From assembly GCA_951406725.2 (NCBI GenBank), contig OX597815.1, positions 123,814,001 through 123,878,000 of the forward strand: 64,000 bases of DNA, in the 5' to 3' direction. Every line of letters begins with the position of its first letter. The stretch's first letter is position 1. Origin of the DNA: Octopus vulgaris (lineage: Eukaryota). The position numbers and the translations under genes are program-made. Below are positions 1 to 62,538 of the stretch, one piece after another. Under the pieces are notes generated by a model. That model saw only the letters and a program-made list of their open reading frames with translations. It made no database searches and was not told where the DNA came from.

Positions 1-502
1 GCTGAAGACCATTTTGGCGAGTAACATCAAACCTTCAAAAGTGGAAGGCATTGATACTAACTGCTCTCGTTGGGTTTCTGACTGTTGGAAGCGGATAGAA
101 GTTATGGGGGAGAAACACACTCAAGCACTACCAAGGAAATGCAGTAACGGGCGATATACGCAGATTTTCACCTAATCTCCCCATTTAGATGTTTTAGTTG
201 AACGAAGATGCATACTGAGTGTTCAGATGTACACTCACCAAAGACCAACAACGGTCATCCAACAGTTGGGAAAGTGAGAGCTTGTTTTTGTTTAGCCATC
301 TTTTTAGGAGAAAGAAAACTTTGATGTAACACCTGCGATCAAGTTTGCATGCAATGATGATTACTTCTTCCTTTAACGCAAATGTATGCATTGTTTAGAG
401 AATGGCATTGACTCTGTGCAAAGCGTTTCCCCCAGGTACTTATTTAATATCTCTTTTATGTGTTGCATGCTATGGCTGGTGAAACTTTCAGTGAAAAATT
501 CC

Positions 503-644
503 ACGATGTAAATTTGTGACCTGGATATAGAAACTGGAGGTTTCGAAGTAGTTGTCGATAGTTACCCTTTTTGTTTTTGATTTTTATAGAGCTATTCAGA
601 TCTGCTAGACAGCTGACCTCTTTGACGGTATATACTTTTTCTTG
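503..644 (-). mobile_element. Diverged fragment of R4-like RLE non-LTR retrotransposon (TACA-associated family)
   Basis: Minus strand reads QEKVYTVKEVSCLADLNSSIKIKNKKGNYRQLLRNLQFLYPGHKF, which aligns by eye with [45 protein letters not shown] at 1198-1373. Its 5' end abuts the (TATG)n tract. Confidence 0.7.
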
Positions 645-761
645 TATGTATGTATGTATGTATGTATGTATGTATGTATGTATGTATGTATGTATGTATG
701 TATGTATGTATGTATGTATGTATGTATGTATGTATGTCCGTATGTATGTTTGTATGTATGT

Positions 762-1376
762 ATTTCAATATTCAGTTTATTTCAAGATTTCTTGCCAATA
801 GAGAAAGAATCGGTTTCTAACCTAGATCTAAGCTCCTTCATTGGAATGTCAATATCAACAACAGGATATTTTTGTATGTATGTATGTATGTATGTATGTA
901 TGTATGTATGTATGTATGTATGTATGTATGTATGTATGCATGCATGCATGCATGCATGCATGTATGTATGTATGTATGTATGTATGTATGTATGTATGTA
1001 TGTATGTATGTATGTTTGTATGTATGTATGTGCAGATTTGCATGCATTATGTATGTATTCTCATGCATATAGTTGCATATCTAGACATGCTCATATATAT
1101 TTAAATGATAAACTTCTGGAAAGTTTTACAGATTTTACAGTTCCAGTGATGGATTGGATCTGTAGTCTTGTGAAGCCTAATTTCTCGAGATTGATATTTA
1201 GGTATTAATTACAGGTATAAACCTGAACTTGTAATCTGGATAGAGTAACTGCAGATTTCTCAATAGTTCAGCATAGGTGTTCTTTTTTTCACTGATCTTT
1301 AGCTTTATGTTAACGTCCACTGGGCTGCTAATTTCCACAACTGTGCACAATTTCTCTTCTCTATCCCAAATAATTA
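762..1376 (-). mobile_element. 5'-truncated R4-like RLE LINE 3' end with 3' UTR (TACA-associated family)
   Basis: Minus strand encodes [55 protein letters not shown]...LQIQSITGTVKICKTFQKFII*, an RLE endonuclease C-terminus. The 3' UTR contains an internal (CATA)n and ends CTTGAAATAAACTGAATATTG before (ACAT)n. A homologous copy lies at 57358-57862. Confidence 0.8.
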
Positions 1377-1689
1377 TGTATGTATGTATGTATGTATGTA
1401 TGTATGTATGTATGTATGTATGTATGTATGTATGTATGTATGTATGTATGTATGTATGTATGTATGTATGTATGTATGCATGCATGCATGTATGTATGTA
1501 TGCATGTATGTATGTATGCATGTATGTATGTATGAATATATGTATGTATGTATGTATGTATGTATATATGTATGTATGTATGTATGCATGTATGTGTGTA
1601 TGTATTTATGTGAGTACATGTGTATGTATGTATGTATGTATGTATGTATGTATGTATGTATGTATGTATGTATGTATGTATGTATGTAT

Positions 1690-2029
1690 GTGCAGATTTG
1701 TATGTTATATATATGTATTCTCATGCATATATTTACATATCTAGACATGCTTATATATATTTAAATGATAAACTTCTGAAAAGTTTTACAGATTTTTATA
1801 GTTCTAATGATGGATTTGACGTGTAGTCTTCGAATTAGCTTTCTCCTTTCTGGTTTTGAGACGCCTAATTTCTCATGATTGGTATTTAGGCCTCCAATAA
1901 CATGCAATCTGGATAGAGTAGTAACTGCAGATTTCTCAATAGTTCAGTATAGGTGTTCTCTTTTTCACTGATCTTCAGCTTCATGTTAACATCCGATGGG
2001 CAGTTAATTTCCACAACTGTGCACAGTTT
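1690..2029 (-). mobile_element. 5'-truncated TACA-associated RLE LINE fragment
   Basis: [37 protein letters not shown] plus the same stop and UTR as 762-1376; flanked on both sides by (TATG)n. Confidence 0.8.
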
Positions 2030-2104
2030 ATGTATGTATGTATGTATGTATGTATGTATGTATGTATGTATGTATGTATGTATGTATGTATGTATGTATG
2101 TATG

Positions 2105-2133
<29 letters not shown>

Positions 2134-2135
<2 letters not shown>

Positions 2136-2880
2136 TAGTTCAGCATAGGTGTTCTCTTTTTCACTGATCTTTAGCTTTATGTTAACGTCCACTGGGCTGC
2201 TAATTTCCACAACTGTGCACAATTTCTCTTCTCTATCCCAAATAATTATGTATGTATGTATGTATGTATGTATGTATGTATGTATGTATGTATGTATGTA
2301 TGTATGTATGTATGTATGTATGTATGTATGCATGCATGTATGCATGTATGCATGTATGCATGCATGCATGCATGTATGTATGTATGTATGTATGTATGTA
2401 TGTATGTATGTATGTATGTATGTATGTATGTATGTATGTATGTATGTATGTATGTGCAGATTTGTATGTTATATATATGTATTCTCATGCATATATTTGC
2501 ATATCTAGACATGCTTATATATATTTAAATTATAAACTTCTGAAAAGTTTTACAGATTTTTATAGTTCTAATGATGGATTTGACGTGTAGTCTTCGAATT
2601 AGCTTTCTCCTTTTTGGTTTTGAGACGCCTAATTTCTCATGATTGCTATTTAGGCCTCCAATAACATGCAATCTGGATAGAGTAGTAACTGCAGATTTCT
2701 CAATAGTTCAGTATAGGTGTTCTCTTTTTCACTGATCTTCAGCCTCATGTTAACATCCGATGGGCAGTTAATTTCCACAACTGTGCACAGTTTATGTATG
2801 TATGTCTGTATGCATGCATGTATGTATGTATGTATGTATGTATGTATGTATGTATGTATGTATGTATGTATGTATGTATG
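2134..2880. repeat. Tandem duplicate of 1262-2133 (LINE fragment + microsatellite + LINE fragment + microsatellite)
   Basis: 2134-2248 nearly equals 1262-1376, and 2455-2793 nearly equals 1691-2029, including the same internal deletions. Microsatellite lengths and internal variants differ. Confidence 0.9.
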
Positions 2881-3090
2881 TACGTCTCTTCGATTTTTTA
2901 ATTGCTACAAATCTTCCACTGACGAGGGAGCCAATTTCAACGATACAAGGCTCCATGGGATGCAGTTAACAAATTCACTATTGGAACTTGAGAAAAGTCT
3001 TGCATATTTTAACCGTTCCACTCACAGATTGGACTTGTAATGTACGAATCAGGGGGCCAATTTCTCTTTTTGAGAAAACGACCAGTTTAT
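2881..3090 (-). mobile_element. 3' end of a related RLE LINE subfamily with a different 3' UTR
   Basis: NKLVVFSKREIGPLIRTLQVQSVSGTVKICKTFLKFQ* matches the family C-terminus LQIQSITGTVKICKTFQKFII. The UTR is unrelated, but the fragment is again bounded by (TATG)n on both sides. Confidence 0.75.
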
Positions 3091-3802
3091 TTATGTATGT
3101 ATGTATGTATGTATGTATGTATGTATGTATGTATGTATGTATGTATGTGCAATACAAACACAATGGTCAAGGTTTGAATGCGTTTGTATGTATCTGTAAT
3201 GACAAGAAGTCTTCCCCTTTTTAAGATGTTACAATATGGCTTGACATAAATTTCGATGCTAGTCAATCGAGTGGCTATGAAGGAATTCCTCTTTTAGCTC
3301 ACACATATTTATAAATTTCTATTAACCAAAAATATATGGTTTGAAAAATAGCAAAGATTTATTAATATAATATCCTTTCTTGATTAATTCTATGCGATCA
3401 GTTTGAGAAAGTGCACACTAAGAATATCATTACATAAAACGACTAACATATATAATTCTTTCTAATTTTGGTGCAAGGGGAAGGGGCACGCCGATTACAT
3501 CGATCTCGGTTCTTAACTGGTATTTTCCTTTATCGAACTAGAAAGAAAGAAAGACTAAGTTGAACTCAACATTTTATCCGACGCGTCAACAATACTATTA
3601 ATTAAATTTATACTTAATGAGTCTACTTTGAAAGGGAAATAATTCTGTAACCATGTTAAGAGTTACTTACCCTGTATTGCCTTCATTAAAACACTGCAGC
3701 TAAATTTTGCTATTAAATAAAGATAAACACGGTCAGCTGGTATTATTTATTTATTTATTTATTTATTTATCTATTCATTTATTTAATTATTTATTTAATT
3801 AT

Positions 3803-4101
3803 TTACTCTTTCCTCTTACTCCTTTACTTGTTTCAGTCATTTGACTGTGGCCATGCAGGAGTACCGCCTTTAGTCGAGTAAATCGACCCCAGGACTTATT
3901 CTTTGTAAGCCTAGTACTTATTCTATCGGATCCCTTTTGCTGAACCGTTAAGTTACGGTGACTTAAACACACCAGCATCGGTTGTCAAGCGATGCTGGGA
4001 GGATAAACACAGACACACAATCATATACACACACAGACACACACAGACACACACAGACACACAGACACACACACACACATGTATGTATGTATGTATGTAT
4101 G

Positions 4102-4157
<56 letters not shown>

Positions 4158-4315
4158 ACGAGCTTCTTTCAGTTTCCGTCTACCATCCTCTCACAAGGCT
4201 TTGGTCGGCCCGAAGCTATAGTAGAAGACACTTACCCAAGGTGCCATGCAGTGGGACTGAACCCGCAACCATGTGGTTGGTAAGCAAGCTACTTATCACA
4301 CAACCACTCCTACGC
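3803..4315 (-). mobile_element. tRNA-derived SINE, family A (CORE-like CCTTGGGCAAGT segment, internal TA/CA microsatellite)
   Basis: Reverse complement matches the full + copy at 28996-29394 (head GGAGTGG(C/T)TGTG...GGGTTCAGTCCC; tail CAGTCAAATGACTGAAACAAGT). Confidence 0.85.
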
Positions 4316-5095
4316 TTATTTGTTTATTTATTTGTTCGTTTATTTATTTATTTATTCGAGTTCTTAGAGTTCGAGTAGTCAGAGTGAAGCTGGTAAACCA
4401 CAACAGAATGAGAATGGCATATAACACCCCTTACATATGTATAAGAAACACACACAAAAAAGAAAGAAAATGTAATAAAAAAATGCGGATGTAAAAATGA
4501 GTACAGATGAAGGACTGTTAAATATCTTTATTGTTAAACTGTTTTTGTAACTTCCACAGGGTGGAAGATCTTAGCTATGTTTAAGAAAGGAAATAATCAC
4601 AATCATATCTTTTATGATTTCTTTCAAGCAAATAATATATCCTTAGTAAAATAGGTCAACTTAATACCTTACAATCTTCCCATATATTCAATAGAGACTA
4701 CTATCATTAAACTAAGGCCATACATTTTGGAGAAGAAGATCGAGTAAATTAGACCTAATATTCGAATTGGTATTTATTTTATTGACTTCGGGTGGAGCTT
4801 TACATCAGGAGAATTCAAACACACAAAATTTTGTGCTTGAAACCTTGATTGAACTGTATTTGATCATTTTAGGCAGGCCGTTTGAATTATTTCGTACATA
4901 TTAGAAGTGTAGTTTATGAAACATGTTAAAATAATAACGTTTTATAGTCAACTTCACAAACCGAGTTATATGTCTGTGTGTGTATGTAAATATAATATCA
5001 GTGTGTATACGTGTATAATGTATTTAGAAACGTGGACCGGCAAAAACTGTAATAGTTTGAAATATCTCAATGAGACTTGTGTGTTAAAAACACAT

Positions 5096-5191
5096 GGCTT
5101 CGTTCAAAATGCCAGTGAATAACCAGACATGGTGTTTCGACCTGATCTTGTCTCCTCAGTGACGAATAGACCAGGCGTTCTGAACTAAGCC
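5096..5191 (-). ncRNA. Type I hammerhead ribozyme with extended stem I
   Basis: Minus-strand RNA: GGCUUAGUUCAGAACGCC-UGGUCUAUUC-GUCA-CUGAGGA-GAC(AAGAUCAG)GUC-GAA-ACA(CCA)UGU-C^UGGU-UAUUCACU-GGCAUUUUGAACGAAGCC. It has an intact CUGANGA/GAAA core, 3-bp stems II and III, a GUC triplet, a 4-bp proximal stem I (two G-U pairs) and a 16/18-paired distal stem I. Confidence 0.75.
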
Positions 5192-5951
5192 GAAGATACC
5201 TGTGATATAAAAATCGATGAGCACGTTATATTATCAATGACAAATTATCGTTTGTAATTGTGCTTTCTATAATCATAAGTCGGCAAATAAATAGTCTTCT
5301 TGTACCTGTATGTTAGTGGATTCTGTCCGTGTGTGAGGTTTTCTCGATCATTGCTGATATGGGACCAAAGGACAACATCAACTGCGACGACAATTAATTC
5401 AGCTTGTTTAGTTATAAACTGTGACATATTCTTTATTACTTTGTTATACTGCTCTAGAAAACTTTCTATTCGCTGAAGTGAGTAAATATGCAAATCTGTG
5501 ATGAAATTGTTGCTGGCGATGTGTTTGTATGGGAAATGTATGTGTGCATGTATGTATGTATGTATGTATGTATGTATGTATGTATGTATGTATGCATGCA
5601 TGCATGCATGCACGCATGCACGTGCGTGTGTGTGTGTTTCTGTGTATATGTGAGTGTGTGTGACTGTATATGTTTTGAAGTGAATTAGAGCGAGTGATTT
5701 CATTAGTTAAAAGACACACACAGACATTCTTATGTTTATTTTTATTTATGTCGAGATAGAAAGACATATAAGTGCTCAGTTCAATATTGTGTTCGATCTG
5801 TGTAGAGTCTGAAGTGTGTATATTTATTCATATGTTATTATATTCTACGGATTTGTACAGTTTACCAAGAAGCTGAGTGGACGAAATCGTGGTTCGGAAA
5901 TGTAAAGTTCGGTTTACCTTACGCATGAATAAACGCAAGGCTCTCTCTGTC

Positions 5952-11700: not shown

Positions 11701-12349
11701 ATAGGCATCTATGTCAGTGATATTGATCATTGTCAAAATTTTAAGAATCAGGGATCCTAAGTTCACATTTTCTGGACTTCGAAAAAATTGGTTTAAAATT
11801 TCAATTTTATTACTTAAAAACTTTTATCAAACTTGGAAATAATCAGCATTTGGAGAAGGTAAATTAATTACTGGTTGTACCTATGTTATTTACAATTGCT
11901 CTTTCAGTCTTCTTACAAACGTTATGAGTATCACAACTCATTTTATGTTTTTTTTTCTGAGGTTTTATGCCTTTGAAAGCAATCCATATTTCCAAGATAT
12001 CCCCCCCCCAAAAAAAAAGACTGATGGAAGTATATTTAATTTATATGTTGAAAAATATCCCTTAAAAACCTTAATTCTCTTGGAAACAACGTAGCCCATC
12101 CAATAGATTCAAGTTTTCTTTTCTTTATAATTCTCTGATTTAATAGTTAATAAATTAGTATAAAGTTGTATTGCGACTAGAACGGCGCGACACAAAGTAG
12201 GATCAGACAAAAGGAAACAATAAAGCCGAATCATGATTCCGGTCCAGATACGCATTATTAACAATAGCTGATACAATCACACCATTTGGCGTTTTCATTG
12301 CATCGCAAAACAGATAGACAAATGCATTATGAAAGAAAATAATGCTTTC

Positions 12350-12546
12350 AAATTTTGGCACACAAACAGCAGCTTTTTAGGGGCGGAAGAAGTAAATTCC
12401 ATCGATTACAGTACTTGACTGGTATTTATATTATCGACCTCGAAAGGATGAAAGGCAAAGTGGAATTTGAACTAAGAAGACAGACATACGAAATACTACA
12501 AAGCAATTTGTTCGGCGTGCTAACGGTTCTGCTAGCTGACCACCTT
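12350..12546 (-). mobile_element. SINE family B copy
   Basis: GTACTTGACTGGTATTTATATTATCGACCTCGAAAGGATGAAAGGCAAAG is the reverse complement of the family B central domain. Confidence 0.7.
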
Positions 12547-13869: not shown

Positions 13870-14175
13870 GGGGGGATGCACTGCATCTACCATTTGTTGG
13901 TGATTCTCTACACCTGGTCGATGACACCGTTGCAACATTCAGGCGACAACCCTGCAACCCATGGACCTGTTTGGGTAGTCGTTGCTGGTGAGGGTTTTAC
14001 GAGGTCGGAGTGCAACTCTTTAACTTCTTTTAGCTGGCTTTTACGATACACAGAGTAAACACAGCACTAGAGGATCATGAAATGAAGTGTTTTGTACAAG
14101 AACTCAAGACGCTGCCCGTTCCGGAATATGGCGATCGTGAGTGCAACATCCCCTAACAAATAGGTCACGCGCGTT
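13870..14175 (-). mobile_element. Degenerate SINE family C copy
   Basis: Reverse-complemented tRNA-like head at about 14060-14175 (GCGCGTGACCTATTTGTTAGGG...CACTTCATTTCA). The left boundary is approximate. Confidence 0.5.
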
Positions 14176-26105: not shown

Positions 26106-27354
26106 GATAGACAGTTGGGTGCTCAACAAGTATATCTGCCCGGGACACGAAGATCTTCGAAAGGGTCCCGTGCATTTCTAGTGAGGAGAAAAGGCCATAC
26201 CTCTTACCAAGGAGCCTAAAAGCAGCCTCGTTCTTCCGCTCTTCCTTGCAAAATTTCTCTCGGAGGCCATGTTGATAAAGATAATTGACTATGTATTATT
26301 ATAATAAATAATTATCACGCTGTATTCTAAGGTTATTACCTTAGAATAAAGTGTAATAACCCTCTATTATATTTTCTATGAATGTTTATTATGCATATTA
26401 TTTCTTTTTATGTTTATTATCATGTTTATTTGACTATATACTTGCACGAGATCATCTATTTATGAGCCGCACGTTTGTATTTAAAAATACGCATTTGAAT
26501 TCAGATAGTGATAGAAAATTCGCACTTAGTTCACAGCTCCTTTGTTTTGCATTTTATTTTTGTCCTGGGAGAAAACATGTAAAGCTGGATTAATGATGTC
26601 AACAAAAAGAAGTAAACTCGATTGCTAACACAAACACTCTACTCAAAATAAGCTAACAGTATGAAAAGTCACGGTAGACTATGACTGGTTAGACAAAACG
26701 AAGTGATAAGATGTTGATGGAGACAGCTGGACCACATCAGTTCAGAAAAGAAAGCTGAAGAGAAAGAGCGATTCACTTCTGATATAACAACTCGTGAGTA
26801 TACGTATGGATAATCATAACTGATATTGACGGGCATACTATTATGCTCTCAGGCTTTATTTTCCTTGAGGTGCCAGTCAAATCTAGGAATAGTGGGAAAT
26901 ATAAACAGACAGTCAGCCTCTTGCTGCAACGATCGTAGTAGCAGGAATGTGCACGACAGGGAAGTACTACTACTTTTATAAGGGTATAAGGGGTGAGTTG
27001 CGATGCTGCGTCTGTCATCGAAGTGCCGTCGGTGTCTGGGAAAGAAAGTTTTAGCCTAGCCGTACTATTGTATGTCTTCTTTGTCGTCATCGGGGCTCAT
27101 CTTTGGGAGGAACACAATCATGCACACACGCGCGCGCGCACGCACGCACGCATTCCGATGTATCCAATACCTTGTGAGTGGAAAATTGGTTGACGGAAGC
27201 TTTTCGGAAACTTCTATCTATATGTCTGTATGTCTGATTGTGCGCGCGCGTGTATGTATGAGTGTGAGTATCTGTTTATGTTTACACCGATCTATAACCG
27301 GTGTCGTAACCTATGACTCATTATGTGGCAGTTTGATAAACAAGTTTCGACAAA

Positions 27355-28450: not shown

Positions 28451-28459
<9 letters not shown>

Positions 28460-28532
28460 GAAATTAATTAATTTGGAATAATCATTAATTTGGAATAATG
28501 ATTATTCCAAATTAATTAATTTCACCCTATAT
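28451..28532. repeat. Perfect 37-bp inverted repeat with 8-nt spacer inside a (TA)n tract
   Basis: ATATAGGGTGAAATTAATTAATTTGGAATAATCATTA-ATTTGGAA-TAATGATTATTCCAAATTAATTAATTTCACCCTATAT. Confidence 0.9.
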
Positions 28533-35056: not shown

Positions 35057-36069
35057 CACGGGCGTGTATATTGGTGGTATGCGTACATAAACATAAGACC
35101 AAACGAAAGGAAAATACGCAATGACCTTTCTTAAATGGAAGTTCAAAGACAATACTAATTTTACTTTAGTACATAAGACATTCGTCTCGTCGATTAAGTT
35201 TCATGATTTATCAACAAAGCTGTTCTTTGTTTAACTACAATCAAATCTTATCTAACCATCAATGTCTTGATTTATATTATATCTTAACAAGAAAACGATA
35301 CGGCAATTGTTGATTCTCTGTTTAAGCAACGGTAATACTTTTTCTTCCGAATTTTATTCTTAACGTAGGAAAACCGATTAATATTATTTACATTGAGTTT
35401 CATTTATTATTCACTATAGATGCAGGTGTTTCTCGTTGATAATATATCGTTCATTGTTAACCCCGGTAAGAAAATATTTCTCCCGATTTAAAGGTTAACG
35501 TTTTCGACCTAGATATACCCCCAAAATATTTATTCTTTAAAACACACACCCACCCATTATCCCCCCCTACAACTGCGTTTCCTATCTTTCGTGGCGTTCT
35601 TAACAAAACATTGTTCCGAGATCACATAACTCTGACGTTTATGCTTATTTTTTCTATAGACGTTCTTGTCTTCGTTTCACCAAATGCAATAAACCCTTTG
35701 GCTAGAACAGGTGTGGTTGCATCCCAAACCATCTCGACGCCATTAGAATATTTAAGACAGTCTGACAATCAATTTACAAACACATTTGGGTTAGTAATGA
35801 AGTAGGGCGGAGTGAGTTGCCAAGAGCCAGTCAACAAGGCGGCAACAGGATGTAGCACAACATTAAAAGAAGCCATGTAAGCACTTTGTTTATTTATTTG
35901 AGGGCAATATAAATCTTTCAGTGGGTGTCCATCATCTTTCCTCATTCTTTCATCTTCAGCAAAAATGTCGTTGTTGAAATATCGCAAATGAAACCACGAC
36001 AGCAGACTGCAAGTGCTAGTAGCAAACATCGGGTTATGTGCGCGCGCGTGTATAAGTGTGAGTGCGTGG

Positions 36070-36377
36070 AACTTTGAGCAAGTGTCTTCTATTATAGCCT
36101 CAGATCAACCAATGCTTTGTGAGTGGCTTTAGACGGAAACTGAAAGAAGCCCGTCGTACACACACATACACACACATACATATAATATATATATATGTAT
36201 GTATTTGTGTGTCTCTGTTTGTCCCCACCACCATCGCCTGACAACCGATGTTGGTGTATTTACTCTCTCGTAAATTCGGCAAAAGAGACCGATGAAATAA
36301 GTCCTGAGGTCGATTTATTCGACTAAAGTCGGTGCTCCAGCATGGTCGCAGTCAAATGACTGAAAGAAGTAAAAGAG

Positions 36378-38486: not shown

Positions 38487-38566
<80 letters not shown>

Positions 38567-38567
<1 letters not shown>

Positions 38568-39325
38568 GGGATTTTTAATTGCAGCACAAGACCAAAGCCT
38601 CCCCACCAGAAATTACCAAAAACATGTAATGAAAAGAAATATTACAAGTAACTGCAGAATATGTGGAGATGGACAAGAAACAATAAATCATATTATCTCT
38701 AGCTGCCCAGTCCTGGCTAAGAAGGAATATATTCACAGACATGACAGAGTTGGAACTTACATACATTGGAAGCTATGCCAACATTATGGAATAACAACAG
38801 AAAAAAGATGGTATAGGCACACACCAGAAAAGGTCACAGAAAACGAGAAAGCAACCATACTCTGGGATATGCCGATACACACAGATAGAGAAATTAAGGC
38901 CAACAGACCAGATATAGTTGTTAGAGACCATGAAGAAAAAAAATGCTTTCTAATTGATGTATCAGTACCGGCAGATGACAACGTGTCTCTAAAAGAAATG
39001 GAGAAACTCTCAAAATACAAAGACCTGGAAATAGAGGTAACTAGAATGTGGAATCTGAAAACAGAAACAATTCCTATCATAGTAGGTGCATTAGGCATGA
39101 TAAAAAAATATTCAGACAAATACATAACAAAAACACCAGGACTTACAAACACATATAACATACAGAAAATTGCACTACTAGGCACTGCACACATCCTACG
39201 CAGAACACTTTCCATACAATAACCATCAGAGCATCACAACAAATCACAGCACATACCCAAGGCACACAGAGCTGCGCTCGGTAGTGAAGTGAAAGCACGC
39301 TATAAAAATAAAAATAAAACTACTG

Positions 39326-40517: not shown

Positions 40518-42650
40518 TTCAGTAGTTTTATTTTTACTTTTATAGCGTGCTTTCACTTCACTACCGAGCGCAGCTCTGTGTGCCTTGGGTATGTGCTGTG
40601 ATTTGTTGTGATGCTCTGATGGTTATTGTATGGAAAGTGTTCTGCGTAGGATGTGTGCAGTGCCCAGTAGTGCAATTTTCTGTATGTTATATGTGTTTGT
40701 AAGTCCTGGTGTTTTTGTTATGTATTTGTCTGAATATTTTTTTATCATGCCTAATGCACCTACTATGATAGGAATTGTTTCTGTTTTCAGATTCCACATT
40801 CTAGTTACCTCTATTTCCAGGTCTTTGTATTTTGAGAGTTTCTCCATTTCTTTTAGAGACACGTTGTCATCTGCCGGTACTGATACATCAATTAGAAAGC
40901 ATTTTTTTTCTTCATGGTCTCTGACAACTATATCTGGTCTGTTGGCCTTAATTTCTCTATCTGTGTGTATCGGCATATCCCAGAGTATGGTTGCTTTCTC
41001 GTTTTCTGTGACCTTTTCTGGTGTGTGCCTATACCATCTTTTTTCTGTTGTTATTCCATAATGTTGGCATAGCTTCCAATGTATGTAAGTTCCAACTCTG
41101 TCATGTCTGTGAATATATTCCTTCTTAGCCAGGACTGGGCAGCTAGAGATAATATGATTTATTGTTTCTTGTCCATCTCCACATATTCTGCAGTTACTTG
41201 TAATATTTCTTTTCATTACATGTTTTTGGTAATTTCTGGTGGGGAGGCTTTGGTCTTGTGCTGCAATTAAAAATCCCTCTGTTTCTGCTTTGAGTCCTGA
41301 GCTTCTCAACCATTGCTGGGATTTTTCTTTGTCTATTTCTTTTGCGTTTAGTTTAGTCCAGTATTTACCATGAAGGGGCTTTTCTTGCCATCGTTTTATC
41401 ATGGTTCTTTGCTGTTCTATTTTTAGTTTGGATTTCATTTTTTTTATAGCTTTTGTTGTTTCTTCATCTTCTTCTTCTTCTTCATGTTTATTAGGTGGTA
41501 TGATTTCTTGTTTGTATTTGTCAGCTTCCTTAAATACTGAGAACAGTTTTTTGTTTTGCTCGTGTTTTGCCGCTATCTGGATCAGTTTTCCTTCCTTCTG
41601 AAGTAGATATTTTTGCAGTCCTATGGTGGTTATTTTATAGTAGTTTTCCAGCTGTATAAGGCCTCTACCACCTTCTATACGTTGTATATATAGTCTTTCT
41701 ATGTCAGATTTTGGGTGATGCATCCTAGATCCTGTCATTATTTTTCTTGTTTTCCTGTCTATTTTGGTCAGTTCATTTCGTGTCCAGTTAAGGATATTGT
41801 AGCTGTAACTTATAACTGGGACAGCTAAAGTGTTGATACCTATTATCTTGTTTTTAGCATTGAGCTCTGTGTTTAGTATTGATCTAACTCGTCTATAATA
41901 TTCTTTTTTTATTTTCTCTTTCATTTGTGTGTGTTGTGTCTTATCTAGTTCATGGATTCCTAAGTATTTGTAAGTTTGGCTTTGGTCTAATTCTTTTATT
42001 TCATTGGTTTTATCTAGTGTGATGTTGTTACTCTTAACTAGTTTTCCTCTTTTCATGGTTACTTTGGCGCATTTTTCTAATCCAAATTTCATATCTATTT
42101 CTTTGGTAAATCCATGAACTGTCTTTAATAGTGTTTCCAGCTGTTTGTCATTTGCAGCGTATAGTTTTAGGTCATCCATATATAAAAGGTGGCTGATCGT
42201 TTTGCCGTAACATTTATATCCGCATCCAGTTCTATTTAGCATATCAGATAGAGGTGACAGTGCTAAGCAGAAAAGGAGTGGAGAGAGCGTATCTCCCTGG
42301 AATATTCCTCTTCTAATGGGGATGTCTTTTGTTTTCATGAGTCCCTCTTTTGTTTGGAGGTGTAGGACTGTTTGCCATTTATTCATAGAGTGCTCTATGA
42401 ATTTTATGATTGTTGGTGCTACTTTGTTAATGGCTAGTGTTTCGAGGATCCATGTGTGGGGGATGCTATCAAACGCCTTTTTGTAGTCAATCCAGGCCAT
42501 ACTGAGGCCTTTCTTCTTTCTGTGGCTGTCTTCAGTTATGGCTTTATTAATCATTAGTTGATCTTTACAGCCATATGAGCCTTTGCGGCATCCTTTCTGC
42601 TCTTCTGGGAACAGTTTGTTTCCGTCCAGGTGCTTGTTCAGCCTTTGTGA

Positions 42651-42653
<3 letters not shown>
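40518..42653 (-). mobile_element. Young 5'-truncated R4/Dong-clade non-LTR retrotransposon inserted in (TAA)n
   Basis: (TAA)n at both ends, 3' UTR ending AAAATAAAACTACTG-(AAT)n, and an uninterrupted ORF. Confidence 0.93.
40623..42653 (-). CDS. Reverse transcriptase-CCHC-restriction-like endonuclease ORF (N-terminally truncated)
   Basis: RT motifs WIDYKKAFDSI, GIFQGDTLSPLLF and HLLYMDDLKLY; CRICGDGQETINHIISSC knuckle; RLE motifs RHD, RPDIVV, IDVSVP and KLSKY. The frame stays open 33 codons upstream of Met 42554 (ISQRLNKHLDGNKLFPEEQKGCRKGSYGCKDQL) to the truncation point. Confidence 0.9.
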
Positions 42654-42718
<65 letters not shown>

Positions 42719-43470
42719 GGGCGGCGAGCGGGTAGAATCGTTAGTGGCGGATGAAAAGCTTAGCGACATTTCTTCCGGTTTAACGTCCTGAGTTGAAATG
42801 TTGCCGAAGTCCACTTTGCCTTTCATCCTTTCGGGGTCAATAAATTGAGTACCAATCAAGCAGTGGGGGGCGATGTAATCAACTAACCACCTACCCCAAA
42901 ACTTAAGGCCTTGTGCCCAGATTACGTTAAACAAAACGCTTAGAAGCATTTCTTCCATCTTTAAGCTCTAAATTGAAATTTGCCTTTCATCCGTTCACGG
43001 TCTATAAAATAAGTACCAGCTAAGCACTGCAGTCGTTGTAACCGACTAATCTTCTTCCCTCCCACAAATTTCAGACCTTGTGTCTATAGTAGAAAAAATT
43101 ATTATTATCAGCGAGCAGGTAAAATCATAAGCATGCCGGACAAAATTCTCAGTGGTATTTCTTCCGGTTTTTCCGTTCTGAGTTCAAATCCCGCCAAGGT
43201 CGACTTTACCTTTTATCCTTTCGGAGTCGATACCAGTCGAACACTGGGACCGATATAATCGACCGCGCCTCCTGCCAAAATTTCAGGCCGCTAAGAATAA
43301 TTAAGGTGGCGAGCTGGCAGAATCGCTTGTTCAAGTGTCACCGACGTCAACTCCGCTTTTCATTCTTTCGGGGGCGATAAAATAAAGTACCAGTCAAGTG
43401 GTGGGGTCGGTACAATTAACTTTCACCCTCCCCTTAAATCTGTTGGCCTTGTATCAAAATAGAAACAATT
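42719..43470 (+). mobile_element. Four head-to-tail SINE family B copies
   Basis: The central CCTTTCATCCTTTCGGGGTC-like domain recurs four times (about 42815, 42980, 43205 and 43355). The array starts right after (TTA)n. Confidence 0.8.
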
Positions 43471-47321: not shown

Positions 47322-47753
47322 CTAGAAAAATATAGGAGAAATATTGAAATGGTTTGGTAAATCAGAAGTGTTCCACACATTAACCGTGTGGAAATGAAAT
47401 TATGAAACTTCTATTGGGTTTGTTAAACATAAGACTATATCATTCACAGGAAAATAACTTAAAAGTTGAGCATTCTAGCCATATTCATTTTTAAAAATCA
47501 CATTCATTCATCCATTTTTTTTTCTGTGTATGTCAGAAGTGACTTCTAGAAGCCGGTTAGCAATCAGTAATAAAACGGGTCTCAAGCAACTACTTAGTAT
47601 TGAGAGTCACAAAAAGAGAGATTAAATCTGAGAAGCTGTCCTAAGAATCATAAAAGACAAGTGTTTCTGTATTGTTACACACTCATTGGAAAAGTCCACC
47701 CTAAAGTTAAAACCCAACAGATAAAAAGAAATCAAAAACAAAGAAAACCTTAC

Positions 47754-55948: not shown

Positions 55949-56834
55949 CAGGGTGTTTGAAAAGTAACTCCCTATTTTAAAATACTTATAATTTATTCAA
56001 CGATAATTTTTTTCTCAAATTTGTTGTATCTGTTCTTTGATGTATGGGGATTGATTCTATGTTGTTAGATTTTCTTTCAAATTGATTATTTTGTTTGAAA
56101 TTTAGAAGCCTTACAAACATCGCCTGATCTCTTTAAAAATATCCTCTGGAGTGATGAAGCGGTATACGACTTGATGGGTTTGCGAACCGTCGTAGCTGCA
56201 CTACTGGGCTGGAGAAGATCCTCGTGTTACCTCTGAAAAAATGCAGAATCGGTGCAAGGCAACGGTATTTTGTGGAATGACTTCGGACAGGATCGTAGGT
56301 CCTTTCATCCTTTGCAATACCATGAATGCGGAAAGGTACCGCACCATGCTGCAAGATGAAATCAGGCCAGTTATCAGTACTTGGGAGAATATTGAAGATT
56401 TGATTTTTATACAAGATGGTGCTCCTCCACATGTTGCTATTGTTGTTCGTAAATGGGTGAATACCCACTTCCCTGGGAGATGGATGGGTCGTCGAAGTCC
56501 GCATGATTGGCTGGCCAGAAGCTCTGATTTAACACTCTGTGACATTTGTCTTTGGGGTTGGTTAAAGGAGCAAGTCTACTCTACCAAACCAACGACTTTG
56601 GAAGAACGTGAAGGGCGAATACGAGAAGTTATGTCTTCCACCTCACAAGAGTTCCAGTTGATGCGATTCCCGGGCCTCTTCAGAAGCTGGTGGCGAATGC
56701 TGGTGTCTATATCGAATTTTAAATAAAACTTCATGCTTTGTGCTTTCTACACATATTAAGTTTTTCTAAAAATCATTGTTAATAAAATAAATTATAAGTA
56801 TTTTGAAATATGTAGTTACTTTTCAATCATCCTC
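55949..56834 (+). mobile_element. Internally deleted DD41D (rosa/Visitor) Tc1/mariner transposon
   Basis: TA|CAGGGTGTTTGAAAAGTAACT...AGTTACTTTTCAATCATCCTC|TA imperfect TIRs of about 50-70 bp. LWSDEA lies at about 56143, and the ORF at 56241-56726 has QDGAPPH followed by 41 residues to the D of SDLTLCD. The DNA-binding domain is missing. Confidence 0.85.
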
Positions 56835-60670: not shown

Positions 60671-60718
<48 letters not shown>

Positions 60719-60904
60719 ATAATAAATATTAGGGAATAAATCCAAATTTACAGGGAAAAATCAGATTTAGGACTGAATCCAATTTTATAGTAAAATATTA
60801 TATAATATTAATTAGAGACAAAACCACTATTATGCAAATCAAACAAAGAAAGACTTAATCCAATACATAAAAAAATTTATATAAATTAAATAAAATTAAA
60901 TTCG

Positions 60905-60950
60905 CCACTACAATTGTTTCGTGTCTCTTCTAATGACATTCATCAGGTGG
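60905..60950 (-). ncRNA. Type I hammerhead ribozyme motif (palindromic ACAAUUGU stem III)
   Basis: CCAC-CUGAUGA-A-UGUC(AUUAGAAGA)GACA-C-GAA-ACAAUUGU-A^GUGG. The core is intact, but the first stem II pair is A-C instead of G-C. Confidence 0.62.
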
Positions 60951-62538
60951 TATTCAGATCTAAAAATAATCAATATTTTAAGATATAAATTTAAAATGAC
61001 TAAAAAATATAAATAATATAAATTTATCAATGAAAACATATATATATAATCTATATATAATCAAGAACTAAAATAACCTCTATAAACAATTGAATATAAT
61101 GAAACCTAGTATTTAAGTTCTCATATTTAAAGATGAAGAATCTAATTTCAAAAAACAAAAAGCAAAAATTAAAATATATATACACACATGCTCATACCCA
61201 AATATCTAAGTATATATATAAACATATCTAAGTACATACACTAACTCACACACCCATATATATATATATATCTATACATACACATAAACTTCTAGGCAAC
61301 GATAAATTAATAAAGTAGCCGTATACTTCTACACATTACTTATTCATACTCCCACACATACACATACAACCCTCATTCATAAACCACATCCAGCAGCCGC
61401 AGATACTCAACAACAACCCACAGAAACATTTCATTCTTAGCAATAAACTACCAAATACCATATACCACATATATACAACAGCCATACATAAATACTTAAA
61501 ACAAACACACACACACATATTCCAAATACCACATGCATGCAACAAACATACACAAATACGCAAACAAACACACACACACGCACACATTCACACATACATA
61601 AACACCCAAAGGAAAACATCATTTCTACACATAAACAATGCACACCCACACACTCACACACACAATCACTCGCACACAACCGCACTCCCACCGCAACACT
61701 CCAACACAGAGGAGTAACAAATTCAGCAGATACATACACTCAGCCACACACATACAGGAACATTCCCTACTCAGCAATATACTATTAAAAACACCAACAC
61801 CATTCTAAAACAAATTTATGAATAAGAATAATAACTTATATAAAATTATTCTATTATTAAACATAACCTAAGCCATTTAAAACGAACCTATCTATTTATT
61901 AAAGTATGTCTAAATTATTTAATAACTAATAACAAAGAAAAATACGATAAATAGATCACTACATAAACAACAAGATTAACATAATGAGAATATATTATTC
62001 AAAAGCTTATACATATTAAAATTACAATTAGGAGATCTTAAAAAATACGTACCTTCTATTCAATTTTAAGTTATGAAGTAAATTTAAAAGCCTAACTGTT
62101 ACAGCGTTAACAAAATTACATTATCAAGGAAATAGAATATATTTTTAATAAATTCTTTGCGCGTGATGAACGAACGTTATTTTAAAGATTATGAATGGAA
62201 TAGAATAGAATATGTTAATCAACGTAAATAGACTGAATTTACTAAAAAATTCTTTAATAAAGCAATCATGATAAACGAAACCCATACATACAAATATAAT
62301 GATAAAACATCCCTTTACCAAATACACAATAACAAACCTATATAGCAATCCTCCCATCAATACATTCACACACAAATACACACACATATTTACACACACC
62401 CACAAACATATACATATACACACTCACATATACATATACATACGTACAATACTCGATATATCCACCAATATATTCACACCCACACCCATACAGAAAATAA
62501 ATAAATACATATACATTCATAATAGTGGTTTTGTCTCT

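What the first reader, a model, noticed from the sequence alone, without database searches (positions are those of the whole stretch)
5096..5191. Apparently intact full-size hammerhead ribozyme in unannotated DNA
Seen: the minus strand has all conserved core nucleotides (CUGAGGA, GAAA, GUC triplet), paired stems II and III, and a stem I that continues past an internal loop into a 16/18-paired helix. Known: loop II to stem I internal-loop contacts activate natural type I hammerheads, which occur in Penelope pLTRs and retrozymes. No clear parent ORF is adjacent. Inference: either a solo retrozyme-like element or a retained self-cleaving site.
Basis: partly seen in the sequence, partly recalled or inferred. 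Interest (0 to 1): 0.75.

Follow-up and report, generated by a model that had tools for sequence, protein, structure and literature searches.

The report
Decayed hammerhead retrozyme copy in octopus
This is a real hammerhead-ribozyme motif, but it is one old, truncated copy of a dispersed 320-base non-coding repeat of an already known kind; its catalytic letters survive, likely by chance, and it is predicted to misfold, so it is ordinary.

Summary
The motif is real: a type I hammerhead on the minus strand with every core nucleotide, predicted cut 5126/5125, and the 16/18 helix. It is not a stand-alone element. It sits in a 5'-truncated single copy (about 5218-4991) of a 320-nt, 39% GC, ORF-less repeat, seen at 58 loci of this octopus genome as monomers, tandem dimers/trimers and inverted pairs: a non-LTR retrozyme with Penelope-type insertion ends. 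The family is old: copies differ 18% from the majority, no two are closer than 75%, the tree is star-like, pairs do not covary. This copy is as decayed as the rest (18.8% in the ribozyme, 17.8% in its flanks), and 6 of 34 copies found without ribozyme bias also keep the whole core. 'Intact' holds only for the core: stem I lost two G-C pairs, stem II its fourth pair, and a new 8-bp helix competes (hammerhead fold costs 11-17 kcal/mol, against about 5 for the majority). Rfam scores it below threshold. Cleavage and expression untested. The scan noted this kind of element before on other DNA, in this and other genomes. Verdict: new family of a known kind, likely a dead copy; low interest.

The parts
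4991..5218 (-). 5'-truncated solo copy (about 230 nt) of a 320-nt hammerhead-bearing repeat unit; weak similarity may reach 5232-5298 upstream and 4958 downstream
   Evidence: blastn of the family majority: L001 1656-1432 = window 5215-4991, 77.6% identity, phases 228 to 144; pairwise alignment; nhmmer 5232-4958
   Evidence: own model R1, 100.6 bits, matches by construction
5153..5159 (-). core CUGAGGA (C3-A9), complete
5139..5152 (-). stem II, 3 pairs here (4 in the majority; A5149 x G5142), loop AGAUCA (majority AAAUCA)
5126..5138 (-). GAAA, 3-bp stem III with 3-nt loop, GUC triplet; predicted cut between 5126 and 5125
5120..5165 (-). proximal stem I, 5165-5160 with 5125-5120: two of the majority's G-C pairs lost (G.U and CxU)
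5096..5191 (-). distal helix 5191-5174 / 5113-5096, 16 of 18 paired
5141..5175 (-). competing 8-bp helix peculiar to this copy: 5175-5168 with 5148-5141; it would sequester loop II and the 3' strand of stem II
   Evidence: read from the sequence; 6-7 of these pairs appear in the MFE folds
4991..5000 (-). 3' end of the copy at phase 144, inside one of the family's two preferred end zones (phases 131-145)

Best explanation
The motif is the hammerhead of one old, 5'-truncated copy of a 320-nt non-coding repeat family that was likely a non-LTR retrozyme, and this copy is predicted to be inactive. Inferred mechanism for the family when it was active: tandem units were transcribed, cut once per unit by the type I hammerhead, probably closed into a self-paired circle, and written back into the genome by a Penelope-type RT/GIY-YIG enzyme in trans, which left variable 5' ends, two fixed 3' end zones about 40 nt apart, tandem runs and head-to-head inverted arms. 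The family then stopped amplifying and its copies drifted about 18% from the ancestral sequence. This copy holds a single ribozyme and less than one unit, so it cannot release a monomer; its core survived by chance while its stems decayed. Shown: sequence, family, architecture, divergence. Computed: folding. Inferred: cleavage, circles, the Penelope partner, neutrality.
For: 40 matches scored of 98 candidates at 71-81% identity with the window query and 51 matches with a whole-unit query, best non-self 70-84%; 58 distinct loci; unit 320 nt, GC 0.388, longest stop-free frame 49 codons; 28 of 58 loci have an arm longer than one unit, 11 of 58 an arm over 500 nt (up to 959 nt), 5 of 58 two opposite arms; 40 of 68 arms end in phases 131-145 or 169-185 while the densest 16-nt window of 5' ends holds 9; majority unit folds as a circle at -85.6 kcal/mol, z -4.2 against 60 shuffles; mean divergence 18.2%, this copy 18.2%; closest pair among 46 near-full units 75%, terminal branches 92% of tree length; no covariation (81, 309, 47, 400 and 131 of 500 shuffles reach the five measures); core complete in 6 of 34 copies from the whole-unit query; hammerhead fold costs 11.1-16.9 kcal/mol here against 5.1-5.6 for the majority over 8 construct lengths. 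The genome holds many GIY-YIG elements (148 matches scored of 6136 candidates, several in 781-aa frames). Matches the definition in PMC7229834 and bioRxiv 10.64898/2026.07.22.740005.
Against: No autonomous partner was identified: the unit has no similarity to the 20 GIY-YIG loci fetched of 148. No A-to-G strand asymmetry as a scar of an RNA stage (369/6322 vs 386/7151, p 0.28). Core positions are slightly more conserved than base-matched columns even in the unbiased set (0.139 vs 0.175, p 0.051; strongly so in the full, ribozyme-biased set). This copy ranks 15th of 53 for ribozyme preservation and has the most distal pairs (18) among 35 aligned copies, though the first 30 loci were found with it as query. 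Nearest-neighbour energies ignore tertiary contacts and Mg2+. The genome search skips very common words, so a young relative could have been missed.
Confidence: 0.86

Rival explanations
1. The repeat is the pseudo-LTR/3' end of an extinct autonomous Penelope-like element, and the copies are 5'-truncated insertions of that element rather than of a separate retrozyme.
For: 5' truncation, inverted arms and a roughly 40-nt offset between two 3' ends are the insertion features described for PLEs (PMC8557442 passages); retrozymes and pLTRs are related.
Against: Upstream of the ribozyme the copies continue into the previous unit, not into an ORF (28 of 58 loci wrap the 320-nt circle); no shared flank beyond the unit among 30 loci; the ribozyme is canonical (6-bp I, 4-bp II), whereas metazoan PLE ribozymes are minimal (PMC4209133); no similarity to 20 GIY-YIG loci.
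Confidence: 0.08
2. This particular copy has been kept by selection as a working self-cleaving site, for example in a long 5' leader or intron of the neighbouring Ly6/three-finger-like gene (same strand, start codon about 9.1 kb downstream) or as a terminator downstream of the EGFL7/8-like gene.
For: Complete core and 16/18 distal helix, including one C-G to U-A double change; same strand as both neighbouring genes; no listed difference inside 5096-5191 in two DNA runs under other organism labels; domesticated type I hammerheads exist in amniote introns (PMC6155905 passages).
Against: Ribozyme divergence equals flank divergence (p 0.86); intact cores are common among drifting copies (6 of 34); proximal stems decayed and a competing helix arose; the related runs differ by only 2 in 1010 and 4 in 500 bases, so fewer than one change was expected in 96 nt; no coding exon of either gene flanks it on both sides.
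Confidence: 0.04
3. A chance match to the hammerhead pattern in a hairpin-forming repeat.
For: Rfam below threshold, no covariation, MFE is another fold.
Against: The family majority restores all three stems and all core positions at once and folds within 2.65 kcal/mol of its ensemble as a hammerhead; one motif per 320-nt tandem unit.
Confidence: 0.02

Closest known systems
Metazoan non-LTR retrozymes (Cervera and de la Pena 2020, PMC7229834; coral 220-245 nt, mussel 350-390 nt, axolotl 330/350 nt; read: passages and parts 2-3 of 6)
   Same: One canonical type I hammerhead per short low-GC non-coding unit; monomers, dimers and trimers; predicted self-paired circle.
   Different: This family shows no young copy among those seen (closest pair 75%); cleavage and circRNA are not shown; the paper has 0 occurrences of 'cephalopod'. 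This copy is a sub-monomer fragment.
   Same: Dispersed solo copies, mostly intergenic; only 1 of 9 predicted elements cleaved in their assay, in line with many copies being dead.
   Different: They require two consecutive complete ribozymes to call an element active, which this copy fails; no pLTR homology was found here.
Penelope-like elements (PMC4209133, part 1 of 4 read; PMC8557442, passages read)
   Same: 5' truncation, partial tandems, inverted arms, a 30-40-bp end extension; type I hammerhead.
   Different: No ORF; canonical rather than minimal ribozyme.
Schistosoma Sm-alpha type I hammerhead / Rfam RF00163 Hammerhead_1
   Same: Type I topology, short stem III, internal loop in stem I facing loop II (PMC6155905 passages; the residue-level likeness of the loops is recalled, not from a call).
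   Different: Scores 16.7 bits against a gathering score of 34.

Membership tests
Type I hammerhead ribozyme | Core CUGANGA, GAAA, NUH | tested here: met
Type I hammerhead ribozyme | Helix I (6 bp, open ends), helix II (4 bp), short helix III | tested here: inconclusive
   Met by the family majority (6/4/3); this copy has 5 of 6, 3 of 4, 3 of 3 and a competing helix
Type I hammerhead ribozyme | Loop I-loop II tertiary contacts | not testable with these tools
   Geometry present in the majority; both loops substituted in this copy; the structure papers were not held
Type I hammerhead ribozyme | Rfam RF00163 at gathering score | tested here: not met
   16.7 bits vs 34, E 0.97; none at gathering
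Type I hammerhead ribozyme | Covariation among homologues | tested here: not met
   35 copies, no measure above shuffles; expected if copies drifted from one source
Type I hammerhead ribozyme | Self-cleavage | not testable with these tools
   bench assay needed
Metazoan non-LTR retrozyme | Unit of 150-450 bp with one type I hammerhead | tested here: met
   320 nt
Metazoan non-LTR retrozyme | Tandem dimers to multimers | tested here: met
   Family: 11 of 58 loci with arms over 500 nt. This copy itself is solo
Metazoan non-LTR retrozyme | Low GC, no coding capacity | tested here: met
   GC 0.388; longest frame 49 codons
Metazoan non-LTR retrozyme | Highly self-paired circular fold | tested here: met
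   Majority unit -85.6 kcal/mol, z -4.2, 59% paired; prediction only
Metazoan non-LTR retrozyme | Expressed as linear and circular monomer RNA | not testable with these tools
   only contigs were available
Metazoan non-LTR retrozyme | No LTR/PBS/PPT; long target-site duplications when present | not tested
   18% divergence makes TSDs hard to see; not searched
Active retrozyme (Li et al. 2026 criterion) | Two consecutive units with complete hammerheads | tested here: not met
   One ribozyme, about 230 of 320 nt
Penelope-like element pLTR | Adjacent RT + GIY-YIG ORF | tested here: not met
   No such ORF near 5100; no similarity to 20 of 148 GIY-YIG loci
Penelope-like element pLTR | 5' truncation, inverted arms, offset 3' ends | tested here: met
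   (family level; 5 of 58 loci with opposite arms)

The most novel reading that the evidence does not exclude
An old retrozyme copy has been domesticated as a conditional self-cleaving switch upstream of an octopus Ly6/three-finger-like gene: the 8-bp helix that arose in this copy holds the ribozyme off until something (A-to-I editing of the A-U pairs, a protein, or temperature) opens it, making it an invertebrate counterpart of the domesticated amniote hammerheads.
Probability: 0.03. Interest if true: 0.7.

Novelty: new member of a known kind. Interest (0 to 1): 0.2.

Why it matters
Little on its own: type I hammerheads in short non-coding repeats are a described class in animals, and this is a probably dead copy. 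Its use is as a fossil and a caution. The family shows that retrozyme amplification with Penelope-type ends in this lineage is old as well as recent (a 94-100% identical family has a copy in the same window), and that about one drifting copy in six keeps a perfect core, so an 'intact core' in unannotated octopus DNA is not evidence of function. I found no paper describing octopus retrozymes in three searches, but the library lacks most subscription papers and supplements of PMC7229834 were not opened.

Tried and rejected
Rfam at gathering score over the whole window: nothing. Expression: no RNA holder listed; contigs of four runs guessed to be RNA were laid and gave no piece across the ribozyme and no splice joint near it; this is no evidence either way. 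Orthologous site in DNA runs X2 and X3: too few differences to test selection. Covariation: none. Search for an autonomous partner: no similarity to 20 GIY-YIG loci. Further copies in the window or the 60 kb beside it: none. Relation to the young family at 60.9 kb: no blast match. Intronic position: coding exons of the EGFL7/8-like gene end at 47752 (its last few residues were not located) and the Ly6-like gene starts about 4.0 kb beyond window base 1, so the copy lies between coding regions; untranslated exons could not be mapped. The ORF 5245-5706 overlapping the upstream flank is microsatellite-rich with only a sub-threshold Pfam hit: rejected as a parent ORF. Copy number could not be counted directly; two pattern counts (5 and 2 hits) extrapolate to roughly 1,300-2,200 copies with 95% limits of about 160-5,100, a rough figure.

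Full report
Observation. The distal helix 5191-5174/5113-5096 pairs 16 of 18. Against 'intact': the MFE fold is not the hammerhead (z -2.07, 6 of 200 shuffles as good), Rfam has no match at gathering score, and in E-value mode Hammerhead_1 scores 16.7 bits against a cut-off of 34.

It is a repeat copy. A search of the own genome (2.8 Gb; an octopus, since a neighbouring exon is 100% identical to a protein labelled Octopus vulgaris) with 5060-5260 scored 40 of 98 candidates; the non-self matches are 71-81% identical. A second query, a whole unit from locus L018, gave 51 matches from 40 of 277 candidates. After removing 9 overlapping loci, 58 distinct loci remained. Forty-six near-full units give a majority sequence whose ends overlap at a period of 320 nt, GC 0.388, longest stop-free frame 49 codons. 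Of 58 loci, 28 have an arm longer than one unit, 11 an arm over 500 nt (up to 959 nt), and 5 have two opposite arms. Of 68 arms of 120 nt or more, 20 end at phases 131-145 and 20 at 169-185 after the cut site, while 5' ends are scattered (at most 9 in any 16-nt window); the second query itself ended near phase 179, which may favour that cluster. The majority unit folds as a circle at -85.6 kcal/mol, z -4.2 against 60 shuffles. The window copy runs from about 5218 to 4991, ends at phase 144, and has no second unit or inverted arm in the window or the 60 kb beside it. Copy number is roughly 1,300-2,200 by extrapolation from two pattern counts, limits about 160-5,100.

The family is old and drifting. 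Copies differ from the majority by 18.2% on average (range 12-25% over 62 arms), and this copy by 18.2%. The closest pair among 46 units is 75% identical, tandem neighbours are no closer than that, and terminal branches make up 92% of the tree. On an alignment of 35 copies (7 of the 42 located were left out as poorly aligned at an end) the hammerhead structure shows no covariation above shuffles. There is no strand asymmetry of A-to-G changes (p 0.28). Core positions are only marginally more conserved than base-matched columns in the copies found by the whole-unit query (0.139 vs 0.175, p 0.051); in the full set, biased by the first query, the difference is strong. The search tool skips very common words, so a young relative is not fully excluded, although the 32-nt majority motif had no exact match.

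This copy is not special. Its ribozyme differs from the majority at 18 of 96 positions and its flanks at 23 of 129 (p 0.86). All 11 invariant core positions plus H17 are kept by 30 of 78 ribozymes overall and by 6 of 34 in the unbiased set, so a complete core is expected in about one copy in six. The stems have decayed: proximal stem I has G.U and CxU where the majority has G-C and C-G, stem II has lost its fourth pair, and both loops are substituted. Substitutions have also created an 8-bp helix (5175-5168 with 5148-5141) that takes loop II and the 3' strand of stem II and would form during transcription before stem I is complete (inference). Forcing the hammerhead costs 11.1-16.9 kcal/mol here against 5.1-5.6 for the majority over eight construct lengths; among 35 copies 18 can form the junction pairs at all and this one ranks 14th of them. 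These energies ignore tertiary contacts and Mg2+. In its favour, it has the most distal pairs of the 35 and ranks 15th of 53 in ribozyme preservation. DNA contigs under two other organism labels hold the same site with 2 differences in 1010 and 4 in 500 bases, none of those listed inside 5096-5191, too few to test selection.

Context. The copy lies about 42.5 kb downstream of the last located coding exon of an EGFL7/8-like gene (59970-47752, minus) and about 9.1 kb upstream of the annotated start of a Ly6/three-finger-like gene (minus; the family label is my reading of the cysteine pattern, from no call). Untranslated exons are unknown. No RT or GIY-YIG frame is near it. The genome has many GIY-YIG elements, but the unit has no similarity to the 20 fetched.

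Mechanism. Most likely (0.86): a non-LTR retrozyme whose tandem transcripts were cut once per unit, probably circularised, and were reinserted by a Penelope-type enzyme in trans; it stopped amplifying long ago, and this sub-monomer copy is a neutral remnant. Shown: motif, family, architecture, divergence. Computed: folds. Inferred: cleavage, circles, the partner, neutrality. Rivals: pLTR debris of an extinct PLE (0.08), a retained functional site (0.04), chance (0.02).

Comparison. The unit size, low GC, tandem arrangement and canonical ribozyme fit the non-LTR retrozymes of PMC7229834 (passages and parts 2-3 of 6 read). Solo copies and a PLE origin are described in bioRxiv 10.64898/2026.07.22.740005 (parts 1-3 of 5; supplements closed), where 1 of 9 tested elements cleaved. 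Truncation, inverted arms and a 30-40-bp end extension are PLE features (PMC8557442, passages). Canonical metazoan ribozymes have 6-bp helix I and 4-bp helix II, PLE ones are minimal (PMC4209133, part 1 of 4). Domesticated intronic hammerheads are known in amniotes (PMC6155905, passages). Searches (listings seen) showed no paper on octopus retrozymes; supplements of PMC7229834, not opened, may list cephalopods. Earlier notes of this scan describe several such families in this and other genomes; none matched this sequence.

Verdict. Observation partly confirmed; a new family of a known kind, represented by a probably dead copy. Interest 0.2.

Noticed in passing
window 60946-60909 (-), element about 60685-61763: A second type I hammerhead (CUGAUGA, AAUU loop III, GUA triplet) in a young, AT-rich repeat family: 40 matches scored of 793 candidates at 94-100% identity, often as inverted pairs 0.6-1.9 kb apart. 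No blast match to the old 320-nt family. A better bench candidate than the finding.
   Followed up: partly
window 34458-34432 (-) and about 21108-21082 (-): Minimal Penelope-type hammerhead (CUGACGA, 4-bp stem II with an extra base, GAAAC GUUA) in a short repeat; the 21-kb copy has U4 changed to C. The 34-kb copy is 84% identical over 183 nt to a stretch of GIY-YIG locus L090, on the opposite strand.
   Followed up: partly
window 59970-47752 (-): Five coding exons of an EGFL7/8-like gene (75-100% identical to an Argonauta protein).
   Followed up: yes
L068:5984-116, L069:2915-2778, L070:7646-7218 (-); related exon L071:6213-6347 (+): Four-exon Ly6/three-finger-like gene with a hydrophobic C-terminus beside the window, and an exon of a paralogue on the other strand.
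   Followed up: partly
window 40626-42740 (-), second 3' fragment 38563-39222 (-): Non-LTR retrotransposon ORF of 705 aa with RVT_1 and zf-RVT and a probable restriction-like endonuclease end; decayed related fragments interrupted by TATG repeats at 450-3050.
   Followed up: no
window 56196-56723 (+): Tc1/mariner-type DDE_3 transposase fragment.
   Followed up: no
window 35625-36104 (-), 26776-27096 (-), 12206-12376 (-), 13911-14066 (-): Exon-like open frames with no Pfam match and no match to the two neighbouring genes; unexplained.
   Followed up: no
family majority, phases 126-132 and 162-168: The two 3' end zones lie just after a pair of complementary 7-mers (TATACAC / GTGTATA), which may mark a hairpin read by the inserting enzyme.
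   Followed up: no
L016 and L018: Tandem dimers in which both ribozymes keep the complete core.
   Followed up: no
window 28454-28529: A 76-nt near-perfect AT-rich palindrome beside a TA microsatellite.
   Followed up: no
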